From positions 1 to 50,130 of the forward strand of contig CAYIBQ010000002.1 of assembly GCA_964361695.1 (NCBI GenBank): a stretch of DNA of 50,130 nucleotides. The letters run 5' to 3'. This document shows positions 17,480-40,232 of the stretch, piece after piece. The stretch comes from an uncultured Candidatus Saccharibacteria bacterium (GTDB lineage: Bacteria > Patescibacteriota > Minisyncoccia > Sungbacterales > HO2-52-23). The notes below the pieces were generated by a model. The model was not told the DNA's origin. It searched no databases and saw only the letters and a list, made by a program, of their open reading frames with translations. The position numbers and the translations under genes were made by a program. The stretch's first letter is position 1. Each line of letters opens with the position of its first letter.

Positions 17480-17563
17480 GGGCGAGTGTCGGAACTGGCA
17501 GACGATCACGACTCAAAATCGTGTGGGGGAAACCCCGTGTGGGTTCAAATCCCACCTCGCCCA
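17480..17563 (+). tRNA. tRNA-Leu (anticodon CAA), class II with long variable arm, no encoded CCA
   Basis: Hand-folded cloverleaf: acceptor GGGCGAG/CTCGCCC, anticodon stem CACGA/TCGTG with loop CTCAAAA, variable arm GGGG-GAAA-CCCC, T arm GTGGG-TTCAAAT-CCCAC, discriminator A. Confidence 0.93.
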
Positions 17564-17569
17564 CTTTCT

Positions 17570-33945: not shown

Positions 33946-36900
33946 TCAGACCACAAAATTGATCAGTTTGTCTGGGACAAAAATAACTTTTTTCGGCTCT
34001 GCGGAAAGGTGCCGTGCGACACCAGGAACGCCGCGCGCTCTGCGCACGGCGTCTCCCTCGCTGGTACCCATCGCCAGCACAAGCCGCCCGCGTACTTTGC
34101 CGTTCACCTGTATGATCAGCTCAAACGTTTTCTGCGCAATCATTGCCGGATTGTAGAGCGGCCATGCTTCGTGATGAATGGATTTTGGTTTTCCTTTTAT
34201 AAATCCCTGCCACAATTCTTCCGTGATGTGCGGTGCTAGGGGTGCCAGTAATTTCAAAAATATTTTTATGTCCTCGCGCGCGACCGCGTGCTCATTTTCT
34301 TCAAAGACGTTGAGTAATACCATAAGCGCCGAGATCGCCGTATTATATTGGAGATTTTCTATATCATCCGTCACCTTTTTTATGGCGCGATGAAGAGCTC
34401 TCTGCATATTTTCGTTTTTGATTTTCCGCTGTTGTCTCTTGTGTGCCAACACCCATACCCGTTCCAGAAAGCGCGTGATGCCTTTGATCCCTGCGGCGCG
34501 AAAATCGACTCCCTGCTCCCATGGCGCCAGAAACATGAGGTACATGCGAAGAGCGTCTGCGCCGTAGGCGCGGATATACTCATCGGGATTGATGATATTT
34601 CCTTTTGATTTTGACATCTTGGCGCCGTCTTTGATGATGAGACCGTGCGCGCGGAAAACCGGCATCGGTTCTTCAAAATCCACGAGTCCCGCATCGTGCA
34701 AAGCCATGGCCAAGAATCGCACATACAAAAGATGCAGGACCGAATGCTCTGCCCCTCCCATATAGCGCGTAACCGGAAGCCATTTTTTCGTAATTGCCGG
34801 ACTCCATGCGGCTTTTTTGTCGCCGACACTTGGATAACGCAGGTAATACCATGCAGAATCCAAAAACGTATCCGAGACATCGGTCTCGCGGCGCGCCCAG
34901 TTCTTGCATCCTGGACACCGAACTTTGTAAAACTTCGTAACACCCGCAAGCGGCGACTGATCCTTCCCTGTCGGCCGAAAATTTTTGACAAAAGGAAGTT
35001 TTATCGGCAAAGATTTTTCCGATGCCGTGTACCATCCGGGCATTTCGGCGCGCTCGCCTTTTTTTGCAACAGCACATGCGTCACAGAAAATCATCGGAAT
35101 CGGCGGCGCCCAGTAGCGCTGGCGGCTAATCAGCCAATCACGGAGATGATACGTCGTCACAAGCTTTCCATCTACAAATTTTGTGATCTCCCCTTTTGCC
35201 GTCTGCCAATCCATGCCGTTGAACTTCCCTGAATTCACCACCATGCCGCCTTCCGTGTATGCTTCGGTGCCCTTTAAAATCTCATCAAAAAGCTCCGGAA
35301 AGGCATTCGTCCTCATCTGCTTAAAAAGGAAGTGTCCCTTACCGATGAATTTCACGATCTTCCCTTGGAGCGCCTCGGCGTACAGTATGGCGGACTTTCT
35401 GTGTCGCTCCTCATCGTCATCGGAGATCAAGATAACGATCTCGCCGACATTGTTGCGAATACGCGGATCAATACTAAAATCATATAGATTGCGTATGAAT
35501 TCGCTCGCATCATCCGCCGGAATCTTCGCTCCAGCAAGCAAAATCAATTTCTTCATCTTCCTTTGCGTCTCTCCGAGCCAACGCACCAGAAAAGCGCCCC
35601 CGCAACTATGTCCTACCGCAACGGTATTTTCATCCACCGGTATTTTTTCAAACTCTTTTTTCCACGCCTCATAGTCCGGCTTCCACGGTTCGGGCAACAG
35701 AGGCGTAAACGCCTGAATCTTTTCTTTCTGCATCTGCTCCCTCATCCACGGAATCCAGTGCTTGTCACTCGCTTTTGTCACGTCCGTCGTATCTTCCTGT
35801 CTGCTAGGACATCCGTGTACTAATACGCACTTCATGCCCTTGGGTACGATCACTGTGCGCTCGGCGATGCCATACTTTCTTGCAAACTCAAAATCGCGTT
35901 CATCGTGCGCCGGAACCGCCATGATAGCGCCCGTGCCGACATCTCCCAAGACATAATTGACCACCCACACCGGGATCTTCTCTCCATTGGCAGGATTGAT
36001 CCCCGACACACCCGTGGAGACGCCTTCTTTCTCGCGCTCCCCTTCGTTATCGCTTTTCGGCTTGGCACGGTGCTGAAGCTCTGCCGCGACAAAATCCTTT
36101 ACTTTTTCTGGCGCCTGCCACCCGACATCCAACCATTTTCTTGCCGTTTCGGGAGAGATCGCAAGGAATGTCGCTCCGAAAAGCGTATCCGGCCGCGTGG
36201 TAAAGACCTCAACATCATGTTTTCCGTTCACTTGACCAGAGATGCCTGCAAGAGAAAACTTGATCAACGCGCCTTCGGACTCGCCGATCCACTCTTTTTG
36301 CGCGATTTTCACGCGCTCCGACCAATCAAGCGTTTCAAGATTTTTCAACAAGCGCGGCGCGTACTTCGTGATACGGAAAAACCACTGCTCAAGCTCTTTT
36401 TTCACCACGACCGTACCGCACCGCTCGCATTTACCCGCAATCACCTGCTCATCGGCCAACACGGTCTTGCATGACGGACACCAATTCACCGACTGTTTTT
36501 TACGGTACGCCAAGCCCTGCTTAAACATGTGGACAAATATCCACTGGGTCCACTTATAGTATGCGGGATCGTACGTCTCCAGCCGCTCGCGCCACGCAAA
36601 CCCGTTGCCGATCATGGCAAGCTGGCGATAAAAGTTTTTTTCGGAGACGCGCGCCTGCTTCATCGGGTGCGCGCCGATTTTTAGGGCGTAGTTTTCCGAG
36701 TGAATTCCGAATCCGTCCAAACCCATGGGCTGAAACACGTCGTATCCCTGCATGCGCTTCAGGCGTCCATAAATATCAGATCCCACAAACGCATACATAT
36801 TGCCCACGTGAAGTCCCTCGGCAGACGGATACGGAAACATCATCAAATTATAAAAGGGCTTCTTCGCGCGCAAAAAATCCGGCTCGTACGTTTTATCCAC

Positions 36901-36951
36901 GAGCCATTTCTTCTGCCACATGGCTTCAATTTTTTTGGGATTATATCGCAT
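33946..36951 (-). CDS. leuS: Leucyl-tRNA synthetase with an inserted YdeN/RBBP9-like alpha/beta-hydrolase domain
   Basis: 1001 aa. HIGH-like motif HVGN, editing-domain motifs TTRPDT and AHDERDFEFA, and KMSKSKGN. There is an extra segment of about 190 aa at roughly residues 372-562 (see finding). Confidence 0.95.
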   Translation of the reverse strand: MRYNPKKIEAMWQKKWLVDKTYEPDFLRAKKPFYNLMMFPYPSAEGLHVGNMYAFVGSDIYGRLKRMQGYDVFQPMGLDGFGIHSENYALKIGAHPMKQARVSEKNFYRQLAMIGNGFAWRERLETYDPAYYKWTQWIFVHMFKQGLAYRKKQSVNWCPSCKTVLADEQVIAGKCERCGTVVVKKELEQWFFRITKYAPRLLKNLETLDWSERVKIAQKEWIGESEGALIKFSLAGISGQVNGKHDVEVFTTRPDTLFGATFLAISPETARKWLDVGWQAPEKVKDFVAAELQHRAKPKSDNEGEREKEGVSTGVSGINPANGEKIPVWVVNYVLGDVGTGAIMAVPAHDERDFEFARKYGIAERTVIVPKGMKCVLVHGCPSRQEDTTDVTKASDKHWIPWMREQMQKEKIQAFTPLLPEPWKPDYEAWKKEFEKIPVDENTVAVGHSCGGAFLVRWLGETQRKMKKLILLAGAKIPADDASEFIRNLYDFSIDPRIRNNVGEIVILISDDDEERHRKSAILYAEALQGKIVKFIGKGHFLFKQMRTNAFPELFDEILKGTEAYTEGGMVVNSGKFNGMDWQTAKGEITKFVDGKLVTTYHLRDWLISRQRYWAPPIPMIFCDACAVAKKGERAEMPGWYTASEKSLPIKLPFVKNFRPTGKDQSPLAGVTKFYKVRCPGCKNWARRETDVSDTFLDSAWYYLRYPSVGDKKAAWSPAITKKWLPVTRYMGGAEHSVLHLLYVRFLAMALHDAGLVDFEEPMPVFRAHGLIIKDGAKMSKSKGNIINPDEYIRAYGADALRMYLMFLAPWEQGVDFRAAGIKGITRFLERVWVLAHKRQQRKIKNENMQRALHRAIKKVTDDIENLQYNTAISALMVLLNVFEENEHAVAREDIKIFLKLLAPLAPHITEELWQGFIKGKPKSIHHEAWPLYNPAMIAQKTFELIIQVNGKVRGRLVLAMGTSEGDAVRRARGVPGVARHLSAEPKKVIFVPDKLINFVV

Positions 36952-37792
36952 TGTTGATGCTGAATAATGTTTGTGCGTTCATGGTCGTGCGGACACAAAT
37001 CTCTTCATAGGAAAGGGTTTTTATCTCGCCCAATTTTCTGGCGGTCTCGGTGACATAGGCGGGTTCATTTCTTCTGCCCCGATGGGGAACGGGTGTAATA
37101 TACGGCGCATCTGTTTCCAACACAATACGCTCTATCGGTATGTAGCGTACCACCGTATCATAGTCGCGGGCAAACGTGATCACCCCTCCAAATGAAAACG
37201 AAAATCCCAAGTCCAAAAGCCGCCGCGCGTCTGCTACACTACCAGCAAAGAAATGAATGATCCCCCGTCGTGTCAGCAAATCACTCTGTCGCGCGGTGAG
37301 TACATCAATGAGATCCGCAAACGCATTGCGGCAATGTATCATGAGGGGCTTTTGTACATCGTGTGCGAGCGTGATCTGTTGTTCAAAAGCGGAGTATTGA
37401 ATTTCTTTTGTTTTTTCTTCCAGACGGTAGTAGTCCAGGCCGCACTCCCCGATCGCGACAACTTTGGAATCCTCGGCAAGTTTTTTATAGTGCGCGTAAT
37501 CAAACGCCTCTCCGCGACTGATAAATCCTCCGTCATCAGCGCCCAGTTCGTGCTTGTCGTGATACGACGCAGAGGTATGAATCGGGTGCAGTCCGACCGT
37601 CGCAAACACGCCGCGCTCATACCGACGCGCAGTCGCTATGGCCGCGGCTGATGTGTCACGCTGGGTGCCGACATTCACCATCCATATACCCGTATCTAAA
37701 GCACGCCGAATCACCGCATCCTGATCATCGGCGTAGGCGGCAAACTGCGTATGGGTATGGACGTCAAACAACTGCGAGGTTTTCTCTGTCAT
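36941..37792 (-). CDS. tatD: TatD family metal-dependent hydrolase/DNase
   Basis: N-terminal FDVHTHTQF (HxH), 283 aa, TIM-barrel hydrolase pattern. Its start overlaps the stop of the upstream toxin as ATGA. Confidence 0.88.
   Translation of the reverse strand: MTEKTSQLFDVHTHTQFAAYADDQDAVIRRALDTGIWMVNVGTQRDTSAAAIATARRYERGVFATVGLHPIHTSASYHDKHELGADDGGFISRGEAFDYAHYKKLAEDSKVVAIGECGLDYYRLEEKTKEIQYSAFEQQITLAHDVQKPLMIHCRNAFADLIDVLTARQSDLLTRRGIIHFFAGSVADARRLLDLGFSFSFGGVITFARDYDTVVRYIPIERIVLETDAPYITPVPHRGRRNEPAYVTETARKLGEIKTLSYEEICVRTTMNAQTLFSINNAI
37704..37771. repeat. Direct repeat copy 1 (inside the tatD 5' coding region)
   Basis: 68 bp, matching 38338-38405 at 63 of 68 positions. Confidence 0.9.
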
Positions 37793-38064
37793 AGCCGTTG
37801 ATCCGCTGTCGCGTAAACCCGAGACCGATGCTGAATCACAAAAACATTCACGCTCTTTCTCTCAATCCTAAAAATCACGCGGTAATCTCCCACGCGAAGT
37901 TTCCGATACCCCTTGAGCGAACGGCGCAAGGGCTTGCCGTATATTTCAGGACGCATGGTCAGACGATCTTCTATCGCCCGTTTTATCTTGTCCCGCCATT
38001 CATGAGGCAAAGCAGGGATGTCTACGCTCACCACAAGTGCGTGGTACTGCACATCGTAGGTCAT
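37789..38064 (-). CDS. RelE/ParE-family toxin
   Basis: LKGYRKLRVGDYRVIFRIERKSVNVFVIQHRSRVY. Start set at MTYDV (38064), which overlaps the antitoxin stop as ATGA. Confidence 0.75.
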   Translation of the reverse strand: MTYDVQYHALVVSVDIPALPHEWRDKIKRAIEDRLTMRPEIYGKPLRRSLKGYRKLRVGDYRVIFRIERKSVNVFVIQHRSRVYATADQRL

Positions 38065-38282
38065 GCCCACGCTTTTTTGTGAGGCACGAAACGGGCACCC
38101 TTTTGGTCGCGCTTGCGGGCAATAGCATCCCATACCTCGTCCTCTTCCGTCTCAAGCGCCCGCGCCAGAAGATCAGCCGCTTTCGTGGCCTCCGGCACCT
38201 CATCGCGCTTGGCGAGACGGACCAGTGCGCGTCTGATGTCGTGGGGGATGCTGATATTGATGCGTGTTTTTGTCGCCAGCAT
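38061..38282 (-). CDS. Ribbon-helix-helix (CopG-like) antitoxin
   Basis: 73 aa with N-terminal TRINISIPHDIRRALVRLAKRD, an RHH pattern. Lies upstream of the toxin. Confidence 0.65.
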   Translation of the reverse strand: MLATKTRINISIPHDIRRALVRLAKRDEVPEATKAADLLARALETEEDEVWDAIARKRDQKGARFVPHKKAWA

Positions 38283-38424: not shown

Positions 38425-38745
38425 TTATTTTATAGGAACGCCTACTACGACTTCGCTATCTGGCTGGATCAGAACCGGTCCATCGGGGCTATCTGCGGCG
38501 AGGAGCATGCCCTGCGATTCGAGACCACAGAGCCACCGCGGCTCCAGATTGGCTACGATTACTATTTGACGGCCGATGAGCGCATCCGGCTCATACTTTT
38601 TTCCGATGCCCGCAATGATCTGGCGCTCTTCCCCGCCGAGAGAGACGCGCAATTTCAAAAGTTTTTCGGACCCCTCTACGCGCTCCGCGGACAGCACGCT
38701 CGCCACCCGCAATTCCGCTTTTTTGAAGTCGTCAAAAGAGATCAT
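38425..38745 (-). CDS. Stand-alone tRNA-binding domain protein (CsaA/Trbp111-like, equivalent to the MetRS C-terminal domain)
   Basis: 106 aa with FKKAELRVASVLSAERVEGSEKLLKLRVSLG..IVIVANLEPR, an OB-fold tRNA-binding pattern. Overlaps the metG stop by 4 nt. Confidence 0.8.
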   Translation of the reverse strand: MISFDDFKKAELRVASVLSAERVEGSEKLLKLRVSLGGEERQIIAGIGKKYEPDALIGRQIVIVANLEPRWLCGLESQGMLLAADSPDGPVLIQPDSEVVVGVPIK

Positions 38746-40232
38746 GATTTTTTATCAAGCCGTGGGAAAAGATTTACGCCTCTTTTTATCGTCGCCTCCC
38801 GCTCACCGACAGATGTCAGTCCATGTATTTTTGCAGCCGTGTCGGGAAGAAATGGCTCAAGAAGAAAAGCGACCTCCTGAACGCCGTATACCGCTGTTTT
38901 CATAAATGCCTTCAGCTGAGCAGTATCGTAGATCCAGGGCTTTTGATCGTTGATCCACTTGTCCATTCGACCGATCAATTCCCATACGCTCCCCAATGCC
39001 TCATTAAGGCGAAAGTCGTCAATACTCTTTTGGTACTTCAATCGTATGCCGGTAATGTCCGAGATCAGCAGAAACTGCTCATCATACTCCGGCTTCAAGA
39101 ATGCTTCTGCTTTTTCTCCTAAGGCGGCAACGCGCGCGACGAGATTGCCGATACCATTAGCGAGATCACCATTGTAGCGCTGTTCAAATTTTTCACACGA
39201 AAAGTCGCCGTCCTCGCCCGAGGGGATTTCCCGCAGAAGATAATAGCGCACAGCATCCACCCCGTATTTTTCAATCAGCGTGAACGGATCAGTAACATTG
39301 CCCACGGTCTTGGACATTTTTTGGCCGTCCGCAGTGATATAGCCGTGCACGATGACGGACTTGGGCAAAGGCAAGCCCGCGGACAGCAAAAACGCAGGCC
39401 AATAGACGGCGTGAAAGCGCAGGATACCCTTGCCGATGAGATGCGCGTCAGCCGGCCACCATTGCGTGTATTTTTTTTCGTCCCATCCGAAGCCCACACC
39501 GGACTGATAAATATTAAGCGCATCAAACCAGACGTACATGCGCTGGGTGTCATCATCGGGCACGGGCACACCCCAGTTGCGCGCGCGCTCATTGGAGCGG
39601 GAAATGCTGATGTCTTCAAGATCGGAGCGCAAAAATCCGAGGACTTCGTTCTTGCGCGTCGCCGGAATGATGCGCAGTTCATCTGATGCGATAAGTTCTA
39701 CGAGCCGATCGCGATACCGCGAGAGACGGAAAAAATAATTCTCCTCCGCCACCATCTCCAGTTTCCTCCCCGGATGTTCGTAACATTCGCCCTCTGGAGT
39801 CAATTCTTCCCGTTTATAAAACGCCTCGCATCCGAGACAATACAGTCCTTCGTATGATTTTTTGTAAATGTCACCCGCGGCGGCGCACCGGCGCCACAAT
39901 TCCTGACTCGCCGGATAGTGATGCGCGGTGTCGCTCCCGCGCTGGAATACGTCAAAATGCACATTGAGACGTTCAGCAAGCTCGCCAAAAAGACGCGCGT
40001 TTGTTTCAATAAAGTCGCGTACGGGTATGCCCGCTTTTTCCGCGGCCTGCACGTTTTTGAGCGCGTTCTCGTCTGCTCCGGAAAGCAGGAGTGTGTCTTC
40101 TCCCCTGCCACGGTGGTAGCGCATCAGCACATCGGCCTGCACAAATTCCAGGGCGTGCCCCAGATGCGGCCGGTCATTCACATAGGGAATGGCGGTGGTC
40201 AGGTAAAATTTTTTGCGGTTTCCCGTCTCCAT
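38742..40232 (-). CDS. metG: Methionyl-tRNA synthetase (core, without the fused C-terminal tRNA-binding domain)
   Basis: 496 aa with HIGH motif PHLGH, KMSKT, and TTAIPYVNDRPH. Confidence 0.95.
   Translation of the reverse strand: METGNRKKFYLTTAIPYVNDRPHLGHALEFVQADVLMRYHRGRGEDTLLLSGADENALKNVQAAEKAGIPVRDFIETNARLFGELAERLNVHFDVFQRGSDTAHHYPASQELWRRCAAAGDIYKKSYEGLYCLGCEAFYKREELTPEGECYEHPGRKLEMVAEENYFFRLSRYRDRLVELIASDELRIIPATRKNEVLGFLRSDLEDISISRSNERARNWGVPVPDDDTQRMYVWFDALNIYQSGVGFGWDEKKYTQWWPADAHLIGKGILRFHAVYWPAFLLSAGLPLPKSVIVHGYITADGQKMSKTVGNVTDPFTLIEKYGVDAVRYYLLREIPSGEDGDFSCEKFEQRYNGDLANGIGNLVARVAALGEKAEAFLKPEYDEQFLLISDITGIRLKYQKSIDDFRLNEALGSVWELIGRMDKWINDQKPWIYDTAQLKAFMKTAVYGVQEVAFLLEPFLPDTAAKIHGLTSVGEREATIKRGVNLFPRLDKKS

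What the first reader, a model, noticed from the sequence alone, without database searches (positions are those of the whole stretch)
35266..35838. Complete YdeN/RBBP9-type serine hydrolase domain inserted into the LeuRS editing (CP1) domain
LeuRS is 1001 aa, against roughly 860 aa in E. coli. Between the conserved editing-domain motif AHDERDFEFARKYG and the conserved ..EGGMVVNSGKFNGM.. segment there are about 190 extra residues: KCVLVHGCPS..DKHWIPWMREQMQKE..PLLPEPWKPDYEAWKKEF..ENTVAVGHSCGGAFLVRWL..LILLAG..VILISDDDEE..GKGHFLF. This follows B. subtilis YdeN almost motif for motif (ILIVHGY..DHWFPWLKK..MPNP..W..ENTYLVAHSLGC..LR.L..ILVSG..SKDDQIVP..GGHFL). It includes a nucleophile elbow GHSCG, an acidic DDD and a GHF histidine, which make a plausible Ser-Asp-His triad. 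No intein signatures are present and the reading frame is continuous. An extra hydrolase grafted into the proofreading domain of an aaRS could provide an additional deacylase or esterase activity. I am not aware of this architecture having been described.
Basis: partly seen in the sequence, partly recalled or inferred. Interest (0 to 1): 0.7.

Follow-up and report, generated by a model that had tools for sequence, protein, structure and literature searches.

The report
Serine hydrolase nested inside LeuRS proofreading domain
A complete, apparently active small serine hydrolase is built into a surface loop of the proofreading domain of leucyl-tRNA synthetase in a Patescibacteria (CPR) bacterium, and related genomes show this is one case of a recurrent, undescribed link between these hydrolases and leuS.

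Summary
Window 33946-36951 (-) encodes a continuous 1001-aa bacterial-type LeuRS. Residues 372-562 (35266-35838) form a YdeN/RBBP9-type alpha/beta hydrolase: Pfam PF06821 above threshold, AF2 pLDDT 93, TM 0.84-0.87 to YdeN. It replaces a 10-residue loop of T. thermophilus LeuRS CP1. The Ser449/Asp513/His540 triad and the canonical editing motifs are intact, and the insert is under purifying selection (omega about 0.10).

It is not a one-off. In Patescibacteria LeuRS, two hydrolase lineages (GHSCG and GHSLG) are nested at several positions, often together with NUDIX. About 190-aa free-standing homologues are common in CPR and DPANN. In four different gene arrangements they abut or overlap leuS (or follow ileS in one case) by 1-4 nt, including a locus syntenic with this window.

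However, most family members are not linked to leuS. The same hydrolase is also embedded in UvrB and a glycosyltransferase, and LeuRS loops also host unrelated domains.

Best reading (about 0.5): an auxiliary aminoacyl-ester/amide hydrolase functionally coupled to LeuRS, substrate unknown. Main rival (about 0.3): an autonomous esterase carried in a permissive loop. I found no prior description. Geometry and activity could not be tested.

The parts
33946..36951 (-). leuS: continuous 1001-aa bacterial-type leucyl-tRNA synthetase ORF (stop codon included). It lacks the leucine-specific domain.
   Evidence: ORF list. TIGR00396 810 bits against a 548 cutoff. T. thermophilus LeuRS 1h3n 622 bits; query 773/776 aligns to Tth 578/635.
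35839..36297 (-). N-terminal part of the CP1 editing domain (residues 219-371), up to the strand TVIVP that immediately precedes the insert.
   Evidence: PF13603 residues 219-374 match model 1-146 of 185. AF2 full-length model pLDDT is mostly 84-97 here.
35266..35838 (-). Nested YdeN/RBBP9-type alpha/beta serine hydrolase domain (residues 372-562), joined to CP1 by linkers of 0-4 residues.
   Evidence: PF06821 45.4 bits. PDB 1uxo and RBBP9. AF2 pLDDT 93.2 alone and mostly above 90 in the full-length model. Foldseek TM 0.84-0.87 to 1uxo. Boundaries. omega about 0.10 against L002.
35137..35265 (-). C-terminal part of CP1 (residues 563-605, EAYTEGGMVVNSGKFNGM...LRD), which returns to the catalytic body.
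   Evidence: Query 563-773 aligns to Tth 375-578. Conserved in insert-less relatives.
35599..35613 (-). Nucleophile elbow GHSCG (447-451). Ser449 is codon 35605-35607; Cys450 follows the nucleophile.
   Evidence: Aligns to RBBP9 Ser75 in GHSSG. Ser is invariant in 127 free-standing and all nested copies. Numbering.
35413..35415 (-). Asp513, the predicted catalytic acid (third D of SDDD).
   Evidence: Aligns to RBBP9 Asp138 and to the YdeN KDD motif. The column is always Asp or Glu.
35332..35334 (-). His540, the predicted catalytic base (GKGHF).
   Evidence: Aligns to RBBP9 His165. Invariant across the family.
35527..35529 (-). Ala475, at the position of a Trp that is conserved in 85% of free-standing homologues (LVAPW). 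It is Ala, Gly or Ser in all 11 site-B LeuRS-nested copies and in 6 of 7 copies nested at or near site A.
   Evidence: Column comparison. Equivalent to RBBP9 Tyr99 by the alignment; Tyr99 contacts the substrate alpha-amine (PMC8866121). The Trp-less free-standing minority are the nearest free-standing relatives of nested copies.
36184..36201 (-). Thr-rich editing motif TTRPDT (251-256), intact.
   Evidence: Motif search. Conserved in relatives with and without inserts. Its role in the LeuRS editing pocket is from established knowledge of T. thermophilus and E. coli LeuRS.
35893..35937 (-). GTGAIMAVPAHDERD (339-353): the GTG region and the conserved editing Asp motif, intact. It lies about 20 residues upstream of the insertion point.
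   Evidence: Motif search. Invariant G339, T340, G341, H349, D350, R352 and D353 in alignment A3.

Best explanation
Residues 372-562 are a genuine, folded and catalytically competent YdeN/RBBP9-family Ser-His-Asp hydrolase (Ser449, His540, Asp513). It was captured long ago into a surface loop of the LeuRS CP1 editing domain, has been inherited vertically, and is kept under purifying selection. These points are shown or strongly supported.

It belongs to a CPR/DPANN family of about 190-aa hydrolases (GHSCG type). Together with a second lineage (GHSLG type), this family is repeatedly tied to class Ia editing synthetases. The ties take two forms: nesting at several LeuRS positions, and translationally coupled genes abutting leuS or, in one case, following ileS.

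I infer that it works as an auxiliary hydrolase functionally coupled to LeuRS. Held rigidly on CP1 by linkers of 0-4 residues, it would cleave an acyl or aminoacyl ester or amide bond through an acyl-Ser449 intermediate, while the canonical CP1 post-transfer editing site stays intact and active. The most likely substrates are aminoacyl compounds generated or used by LeuRS, such as a mis-acylated tRNA 3' end or small aminoacyl esters or amides. The substrate is not known, and the coupling is inferred, not shown.
For: Identity and fold. The triad is conserved in all nested and free-standing copies. Selection: insert dN 0.079, dS 0.78, omega 0.10; rest of LeuRS omega 0.13. Insert identity tracks host identity. 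Editing motifs are intact with and without inserts.

Recurrent fusion: the hydrolases sit at LeuRS HMM positions of about 240 (site A), about 375 (site B, this window) and about 450 (site C). One or two proteins each place one at about 206, about 409 and about 663. Two lineages are involved, and several captures have different nearest free-standing relatives.

Operon linkage, four different arrangements: L086 leuS-TAA-A-ATG-hydrolase. L092/L093, leuS 3' end overlapping the hydrolase start by 4 nt. L107, hydrolase and leuS overlapping by ATGA. L090, GHSCG-type then PaaX then GHSLG-type-TAA-T-ATG-leuS, in the same metG-tatD-leuS-sua5 synteny as the window. In addition, L139 has ileS followed by both hydrolase types.

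In a scan seeded only with the hydrolase family, 6 of 68 assessable loci were nested in or adjacent to a class Ia synthetase. I estimate that well under 1% would be expected by chance.

The two lineages recur as a pair: P0005, L156, L090 and L139. LeuRS-nested copies share a Trp-to-small change next to the active site. The one family member with a defined substrate, RBBP9, cleaves aminoacyl amides and needs a free alpha-amine (PMC8866121). A YdeN-like esterase, ML-005, prefers short acyl esters (PMC6119806 abstract).
Against: More than 90% of sampled family members are free-standing and not near leuS. The flanks of 80 leuS loci held no strong free-standing copy.

The same GHSCG domain is nested in UvrB, embedded in a GT2 glycosyltransferase, and fused to NUDIX and YdjC. 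LeuRS loops in this clade also carry NUDIX, Ham1, HAD, GNAT, an IS200-type Y1 transposase domain and a DUF559 endonuclease. This argues that the loops are simply permissive.

Presence is patchy among close LeuRS relatives, so the domain is dispensable. Nested copies are not more basic than free-standing ones, p = 0.20. Two of the three RBBP9 residues that contact the alpha-amine are not kept: Ser76 is Cys450 and Tyr99 is Ala475.

The distance and orientation of Ser449 relative to the CP1 pocket or the tRNA path could not be measured, because no model coordinates are exposed. No activity data exist.
Confidence: 0.5

Rival explanations
1. Autonomous housekeeping esterase carried by LeuRS. The hydrolase acts on a small-molecule substrate unrelated to leucylation. 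CP1 surface loops are just unusually permissive insertion sites in an essential, constitutively expressed protein. Nesting or operon coupling only secures co-expression in a minimal genome.
For: The same two or three LeuRS loops host unrelated domains: NUDIX, Ham1, HAD, GNAT, Y1 transposase and DUF559. An IleRS hosts a His_Phos_1 phosphatase. The GHSCG hydrolase is also nested in UvrB, embedded in GT2, and fused to NUDIX and YdjC. One free-standing copy lies in a Ham1/MazG-like/patatin cluster, another overlaps a glyoxalase gene, and NUDIX genes neighbour it in L125 and L165. Most family members are unlinked to leuS. Distribution among close LeuRS relatives is patchy. There is no charge adaptation.
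Against: Among proteins whose GHSCG domain scores about 134 bits or more on its own, LeuRS is the host in about 11 of about 17 fused cluster representatives. There are four different translationally coupled leuS or ileS arrangements. Two hydrolase lineages recur as a pair with the synthetase. Nested copies share a Trp-to-small change near the active site. Permissiveness alone does not explain adjacency of free-standing genes.
Confidence: 0.3
2. Substrate supply. The hydrolase is an aminopeptidase or amino-acid-ester hydrolase that releases leucine or other hydrophobic amino acids from scavenged peptides or esters, next to the synthetase that consumes them. These organisms are thought to lack most amino-acid biosynthesis (own knowledge).
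For: RBBP9, the closest characterised relative by structure after YdeN, is an aminopeptidase that removes N-terminal hydrophobic/aromatic residues and needs a free alpha-amine (PMC8866121; fold match). Linkage is to LeuRS and IleRS, both of which use hydrophobic amino acids.
Against: RBBP9's alpha-amine contacts Ser76 and Tyr99 are not conserved here; they are Cys450 and Ala475. Identity to RBBP9 is only 22-25%. The co-nested NUDIX and Ham1 domains do not fit a supply role. No channel or geometry could be examined.
Confidence: 0.1
3. Non-catalytic module. The domain has lost or never uses its hydrolase chemistry in this context. It serves as a structural, tRNA-contacting or regulatory appendage of CP1.
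For: Short rigid linkers. Some nested copies have altered elbows, AHSCG in P0064 and ATSCG in P0107. Conserved free-standing positions are relaxed in nested copies.
Against: Ser, His and the acid are retained in every nested copy examined, at 40-50% identity. omega is 0.10. There is no gain of positive charge.
Confidence: 0.05
4. Artefact or selfish insert: an assembly chimera, a frameshifted pseudogene, an intein, or a recent mobile-element insertion.
For: Relatives do carry in-frame Y1-transposase and DUF559 domains in the same loops. Read mapping could not be done.
Against: The frame is continuous. The architecture recurs in independent assemblies and sources. There is no Hint/intein family. 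Flanking repeats are no longer than short chance-level matches. GC content matches the host gene. Selection is purifying, and insert divergence tracks host divergence.
Confidence: 0.02

Closest known systems
B. subtilis YdeN (PDB 1UXO) and human RBBP9 (2QS9, 7OEX), Pfam PF06821 Ser_hydrolase
   Same: Same minimal lid-less alpha/beta hydrolase fold of about 190 aa (TM 0.84-0.87 and 0.78-0.82). Same order and position of the GxSxG nucleophile, the acid and the His.
   Different: Only 21-25% identical. It is nested inside another domain rather than free-standing. It belongs to a CPR/DPANN subfamily with GHSCG and HGCP cysteines. RBBP9's alpha-amine contacts Ser76 and Tyr99 are Cys450 and Ala475 here.
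Canonical bacterial LeuRS with CP1 editing domain (T. thermophilus 1H3N/2BYT, E. coli 4AQ7)
   Same: Full-length collinear match. The KMSKS, Thr-rich TTRPDT, GTG and AHDxRD editing motifs are all present.
   Different: A 192-residue enzyme replaces the 10-residue Tth loop 365-374. The leucine-specific domain is absent. The HIGH motif reads HVGN.
Cis/trans editing-domain families (ProRS INS with YbaK/ProX; AlaRS editing domain with AlaX); comparison from own knowledge
   Same: The distribution pattern is similar. One hydrolytic domain family occurs both built into a synthetase and as scattered free-standing proteins, and only some of the latter lie near the synthetase gene.
   Different: There is no sequence or fold relationship. 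No alpha/beta-hydrolase-fold aminoacyl-tRNA deacylase is known to me. Here the domain also occurs in non-synthetase hosts, and no deacylase activity has been shown.
Synthetases carrying accessory enzyme domains, e.g. IleRS with a GNAT domain (NCBIfam NF040702 ileS_w_GNAT)
   Same: A class Ia synthetase fused to a complete small enzyme of unclear role. The NCBIfam model appears in the hit lists.
   Different: Different domain, and here it is nested within the editing domain itself. A 2026 survey found PF13603 never acting as a host (PMC13114784).
BPHL/valacyclovirase, an alpha/beta serine hydrolase acting on alpha-amino-acid esters (own knowledge, not tested here)
   Same: It shows that this fold and triad can hydrolyse aminoacyl esters with a free amine. 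That is the chemistry an auxiliary deacylase would need.
   Different: No specific homology was tested or found. It is cited only as a chemical precedent.

Membership tests
Pfam PF06821 Ser_hydrolase (YdeN/RBBP9 family) | Profile match above the curated gathering score | tested here: met
   45.4 bits for the insert alone and 40.7 bits in the full protein, against a cutoff of 22.
Pfam PF06821 Ser_hydrolase (YdeN/RBBP9 family) | Compact alpha/beta hydrolase fold of about 190 aa without a lid, superposable on YdeN and RBBP9 | tested here: met
   AF2 pLDDT 93.2 and pTM 0.91. Foldseek 1uxo TM 0.84/0.87 and RBBP9 0.78-0.82, ranks 1-7.
Pfam PF06821 Ser_hydrolase (YdeN/RBBP9 family) | Ser (GxSxG), acid and His triad at the canonical positions | tested here: met
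   Ser449, Asp513 and His540 align to RBBP9 Ser75, Asp138 and His165. They are conserved across nested and free-standing copies.
Pfam PF06821 Ser_hydrolase (YdeN/RBBP9 family) | Hydrolytic activity dependent on the serine | not testable with these tools
   Needs a recombinant enzyme and the S449A mutant.
Bacterial-type LeuRS (TIGR00396) | Equivalog profile above the curated cutoff, collinear with solved LeuRS structures | tested here: met
   810.5 bits against 548.4. 1h3n 622 bits over three collinear stretches.
Bacterial-type LeuRS (TIGR00396) | Class I signature motifs HIGH and KMSKS | tested here: met
   KMSKS at 778-782. The HIGH position reads HVGN at 48-51, with H48 and G50 invariant in the clade. 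The fourth-position His is Asn in this clade.
Bacterial-type LeuRS (TIGR00396) | CP1 editing site residues (Thr-rich motif, GTG, conserved Asp) | tested here: met
   TTRPDT 251-256 and GTGAIMAVPAHDERD 339-353. Conserved in relatives.
Known aminoacyl-tRNA trans- or cis-editing families (YbaK/ProX, AlaX, Dtd) | Sequence or fold homology of the insert to one of these families | tested here: not met
   Pfam and NCBIfam scans of the insert returned only alpha/beta hydrolase families. All fold hits were alpha/beta hydrolases. Any deacylase role would be by analogy, not by membership.
Inteins | Hint/intein splicing domain and conserved junction residues | tested here: not met
   No Hint or intein family in the Pfam scan. 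The insert is a complete hydrolase fold from its first strand to its last helix.
Functional partner of LeuRS (fusion plus neighbourhood criterion) | Recurrent, independent fusion and conserved adjacency with leuS | tested here: met
   Several nested positions and two lineages. Four translationally coupled arrangements: L086, L090, L092 and L107. 6 of 68 assessable loci in a hydrolase-seeded sample. This holds for only a minority of family members.
Functional partner of LeuRS (fusion plus neighbourhood criterion) | Hydrolase active site positioned to reach the CP1 pocket or the tRNA 3' end | not testable with these tools
   Model coordinates are not exposed. Only pLDDT and secondary structure are returned.

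The most novel reading that the evidence does not exclude
The GHSCG hydrolase, with its GHSLG partner, is a previously unrecognised alpha/beta-hydrolase-fold proofreading or clean-up module for class Ia synthetases. It would act in cis when nested in CP1 and in trans when free-standing across CPR bacteria and DPANN archaea. Its targets would be mis-acylated tRNA or reactive aminoacyl by-products that the canonical CP1 site does not handle.
Probability: 0.2. Interest if true: 0.9.

Novelty: new variant of a known kind. Interest (0 to 1): 0.7.

Why it matters
Synthetase editing domains are regarded as terminal inserted modules. A 2026 survey of 48,551 insertion events found no case of the LeuRS editing domain acting as a host (PMC13114784).

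Here CP1 hosts a complete second enzyme. Across Patescibacteria the same hydrolases recur at several LeuRS positions and as translationally coupled neighbours of leuS and ileS.

If the hydrolase acts on aminoacyl substrates, it would be a new fold class of translational quality-control enzyme, found in organisms with minimal genomes. If it does not, the system is still a clear natural example of an essential protein serving as a scaffold for nested enzymes, with defined permissive loops that could be useful for protein engineering.

Either way, it assigns a testable context to a CPR/DPANN protein family of unknown function with more than 1300 detected members.

Tried and rejected
1. Alignment A1, which mixed full-length LeuRS with free-standing hydrolases, was unusable. 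MAFFT smeared the short proteins over the whole length. I replaced it with A2 and A3.

2. The apparent 4.4-kb leuS matches suggested LeuRS proteins of about 1460 aa. They were an artefact: a neighbouring class-I synthetase paralogue of about 500 aa upstream (MetRS in the window) was being joined to the match.

3. I looked for free-standing hydrolase genes in the flanks of 80 leuS loci and found none with a strong score. Adjacency is therefore rare from the LeuRS side.

4. I tested whether nested copies are more basic, as a proxy for RNA binding. They are not, p = 0.20.

5. I looked for direct or inverted repeats flanking the insert as a trace of mobile insertion. Only short chance-level matches appeared.

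6. I tried to obtain model coordinates to measure the distance from Ser449 to the editing pocket. They are not available in the sandbox.

7. I tested whether loss of the LVAPW Trp marks LeuRS association among free-standing copies. It does so only partly: P0124 lacks it, but P0156, which abuts leuS, keeps it.

8. Literature searches for any description of hydrolase or NUDIX insertions in LeuRS or CPR synthetases found nothing relevant.

9. The word-indexed homology search with the insert alone did not list the fused LeuRS proteins, although they are 85% identical. The hydA query returned only 10 hits. Counts from those two searches are therefore not used quantitatively.

10. Compensation for a degenerate editing site is rejected, because the editing motifs are intact in LeuRS both with and without inserts.
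Full report
**Observation.** The window carries one uninterrupted 1001-aa ORF at 33946..36951 on the minus strand. It is a bacterial-type LeuRS: TIGR00396 scores 810 bits against a cutoff of 548, and T. thermophilus LeuRS 1h3n scores 622 bits. The finding's coordinates 35266-35838 are exactly residues 372-562.

Against T. thermophilus LeuRS, query 2-370 aligns to Tth 3-364 and query 563-773 to Tth 375-578. The 192 residues therefore replace a 10-residue loop. This loop lies inside the Pfam editing-domain model PF13603, which is interrupted at model position about 146 of 185. The leucine-specific domain is missing, since query 773/776 aligns to Tth 578/635.

**What the insert is.** It matches Pfam PF06821 Ser_hydrolase above the gathering score: 45.4 bits alone and 40.7 bits in context, against a cutoff of 22. 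Its only PDB sequence hits are YdeN 1uxo (E 2e-8) and RBBP9 (E 3e-6).

An AF2 model built on 115 homologues has pLDDT 93.2 and pTM 0.91. Foldseek ranks YdeN first (TM 0.84/0.87) and RBBP9 next (0.78-0.82), followed by other alpha/beta hydrolases. In the full-length model (pLDDT 87.9, pTM 0.78) both CP1 and the insert are confidently folded.

By alignment to RBBP9, the triad is Ser449 (GHSCG), Asp513 (third D of SDDD) and His540 (GKGHF). No intein family is detected.

The canonical editing motifs are intact: TTRPDT at 251-256 and GTGAIMAVPAHDERD at 339-353. KMSKS is also present. The linkers are 0-4 residues...ERTVIVP|KGM-KCVLVHG ... FPELFDEILKGT|EAYTEGG....

**Real, old and constrained.** The organism is a Patescibacteria (Parcubacteria/Paceibacteria-type) bacterium, judged from its nearest LeuRS relatives. 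The same site-B architecture occurs in independent assemblies: P0002-P0004, P0055, P0064, P0107, P0111, and species-representative loci L002 and L003.

Insert identity tracks host identity: 85-91% against 77-86%, 58% against 68-71%, and 41-51% against 55-57%. Compared with L002, the insert has dN 0.079, dS 0.78 and omega 0.10. The rest of LeuRS has omega 0.13, though its dS is near saturation. GC content is unremarkable, and no meaningful flanking repeats exist.

A chimera, pseudogene or recent mobile insertion is therefore very unlikely. Read mapping was not possible.

**The wider pattern.** Free-standing homologues of about 190 aa, 45-54% identical and sharing the GHSCG motif, number more than 1300 in CPR bacteria and DPANN archaea.

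The first 120 LeuRS homologues showed two CP1 insertion sites:
- Site A is the tip of the hairpin just before TTRPDT.
- Site B is the site used in this window.

Site-B inserts belong to the GHSCG family (175-275 bits to its HMM). Most site-A inserts belong to a second, GHSLG lineage (24-61 bits), which also has free-standing relatives. NUDIX domains occupy site B in many LeuRS. Observed combinations include hydrolase at A with NUDIX at B, and hydrolase at A with hydrolase at B (P0005).

An exhaustive search of 1.84 billion cluster representatives with a junction-spanning fragment, classified with my own HMMs, gave more:
- GHSCG copies also occur at site A.
- GHSLG-like copies occur at site B and at a third site just after CP1, at HMM position about 450.
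- Single or double examples occur at about 206, about 409 and about 663.

NJ trees suggest one old capture for the clade that includes this window, followed by losses. They also indicate separate captures elsewhere, because several nested copies have different nearest free-standing relatives. These trees carry no support values.

**Evidence for a specific link to LeuRS.** I sampled contexts of free-standing genes and found four different translationally coupled arrangements:
- L086: leuS-TAA-A-ATG-hydrolase.
- L092/L093: the 3' end of leuS (TIGR00396, 189 bits on the fragment) overlaps the hydrolase start by 4 nt.
- L107: the hydrolase stop and the leuS start overlap as ATGA.
- L090: GHSCG-type (P0124), then PaaX, then GHSLG-type-TAA-T-ATG-leuS with no insert. 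The surrounding synteny (AI-2E transporter, metG, tatD, leuS, sua5) is the same as in the window.

L139 has an IleRS followed by both hydrolase types.

In a metagenome scan seeded only with the hydrolase family, 4 of 80 loci were nested in LeuRS, 1 abutted leuS and 1 followed ileS. That is 6 of the 68 loci with at least 1 kb of flank on at least one side. I estimate that chance adjacency would be well under 1%.

The two lineages recur as a pair: P0005, L156 (in tandem at site A), L090 and L139. LeuRS-nested GHSCG copies replace a Trp conserved in 85% of free-standing proteins (LVAPW) with Ala, Gly or Ser; here it is Ala475. The Trp-less free-standing minority are their nearest relatives. By the alignment this position is RBBP9 Tyr99, which contacts the substrate alpha-amine (PMC8866121).

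**Evidence for mere permissiveness.**
- LeuRS loops in this clade also host Ham1/ITPase (L028, P0256), GNAT (P0355), HAD (P0291), an IS200-type Y1 transposase domain (P0294), a DUF559 endonuclease (P0309) and unidentified domains. The L139 IleRS hosts a His_Phos_1 phosphatase.
- The GHSCG hydrolase itself is nested in UvrB (P0363), embedded in a GT2 glycosyltransferase (P0246), and fused to NUDIX and YdjC.
- Most free-standing copies are not near leuS. One sits in a Ham1/MazG-like/patatin cluster and one overlaps a glyoxalase gene.
- The flanks of 80 leuS loci hold no strong copy.
- Architectures are patchy among close LeuRS relatives.
- Nested copies are not more basic than free-standing ones, p = 0.20.

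**Mechanism.** It is shown, or strongly supported, that this is a folded, selected, triad-bearing serine hydrolase nested in an intact CP1. The rest is inference.

I favour (about 0.5) an auxiliary hydrolase functionally coupled to LeuRS. It would cleave an aminoacyl or acyl ester or amide via acyl-Ser449 alongside canonical editing. Three observations support this. Fusion and adjacency recur independently. LeuRS is the dominant host of fused GHSCG domains, about 11 of about 17 cluster representatives. And the only family member with a defined substrate acts on aminoacyl amides with a free amine.

The main rival (about 0.3) is an autonomous housekeeping esterase using LeuRS as a carrier. Lesser rivals are leucine supply by an aminopeptidase-like activity (about 0.1), a non-catalytic appendage (about 0.05) and an artefact (about 0.02).

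The decisive geometric test is the position of Ser449 relative to the CP1 pocket and the tRNA 3' end. It could not be run because model coordinates are not exposed.

**Comparison and novelty.** The insert meets every testable criterion for membership of PF06821, and the host is a standard bacterial LeuRS. The insert is not a member of any known editing-domain family.

I found no description of this architecture. A 2026 survey states that the LeuRS editing domain shows 100% insertion behaviour and zero host events (PMC13114784). Public annotations call such proteins 'class I tRNA ligase family protein' or 'NUDIX domain-containing protein'.

I rate it a new variant of a known kind, namely a synthetase with an accessory domain. 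The interest is substantial because of the recurrent, multi-site, two-lineage association and the testable possibility of a new fold class of translational quality control.

Noticed in passing
Related proteins P0015, P0016, P0018, P0030, P0032, P0041, P0044, P0047 and others; loci L004, L005, L012, L036, L041, L060, L068: Many Patescibacteria LeuRS carry a NUDIX domain (PF00293) at the same CP1 loop (site B) that holds the hydrolase in this window. Some carry NUDIX at B together with a hydrolase at site A or site C, and P0347 has NUDIX at both A and B.
   Followed up: partly
L028 5935-9102 (residues about 273-478); P0256 250-460; P0355 240-462; P0294 241-396; P0309 250-385; P0291 649-838: Other complete domains are nested in LeuRS loops of relatives: Ham1/ITPase, GNAT acetyltransferase, an IS200-type Y1 transposase domain, a DUF559 endonuclease domain and a HAD hydrolase. 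There are also unidentified inserts of about 110-135 aa (L020, L065, P0283, P0316).
   Followed up: partly
P0363 (796 aa), P0246 (508 aa), P0277, P0287, P0320: The same GHSCG hydrolase domain is nested inside UvrB, between UvrB_inter and Helicase_C. It is embedded after the GT2 domain of a glycosyltransferase, and it is fused to YdjC-like and NUDIX domains.
   Followed up: partly
L139 756-4148: A 1131-aa IleRS (TIGR00392, 864 bits) carries a nested histidine-phosphatase (His_Phos_1) domain at residues 511-641. It is followed by two free-standing PF06821-type hydrolase genes.
   Followed up: partly
window 38428-40232 (-): MetRS is split into a 496-aa core (38745-40232) and a separate 106-aa tRNA_bind (Trbp111-like) ORF (38428-38745) whose start overlaps the core's stop. 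A class-I synthetase paralogue of about 500 aa (MetRS in the window) lies upstream of leuS in most related loci.
   Followed up: partly
window 37792-38133 (-) and 36941-37792 (-): A ParE-toxin-like ORF (PF05016, 31.9 bits) sits between the metG/tRNA_bind pair and a TatD-family gene. The 3' end of the TatD gene overlaps the leuS start codon region (36941-36951), which suggests a single operon.
   Followed up: no
window 36799-36813 (-), LeuRS residues 47-51: The class I HIGH signature reads HVGN in this LeuRS and in the clade consensus (H48 and G50 invariant). The fourth position is Asn instead of His.
   Followed up: no
window 35803-35817 and 35599-35613 (-): Two cysteines are conserved near the predicted active site of the GHSCG family: Cys380 in HGCP, at the usual oxyanion-hole position, and Cys450 right after the nucleophile. 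The GHSLG lineage lacks both. This might indicate redox sensitivity or thioester chemistry.
   Followed up: no
L009 5938-6867 and 6648-9005; L030 5911-6690 and 6823-8847: In two species representatives, leuS is read as two ORFs that break at or near insertion site A (HMM position about 238). This is either a frameshift or assembly error, or a genuinely split LeuRS.
   Followed up: no
L082 6001-7799; L083 373-3402: A free-standing GHSCG hydrolase lies in a run of putative house-cleaning genes: the hydrolase, an unknown 197-aa protein, Ham1, patatin and MazG-like. In L084 another copy overlaps a glyoxalase gene.
   Followed up: partly
window 17480-17564 (+): tRNA-Leu(CAA) is the only RNA gene detected in the window by Rfam and ARAGORN.
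   Followed up: no
(tool behaviour): The word-indexed homology search with the insert alone did not list the fused LeuRS proteins that are 85% identical to it. The hydA query returned only 10 hits. Hit counts from those searches under-represent nested copies.
   Followed up: no
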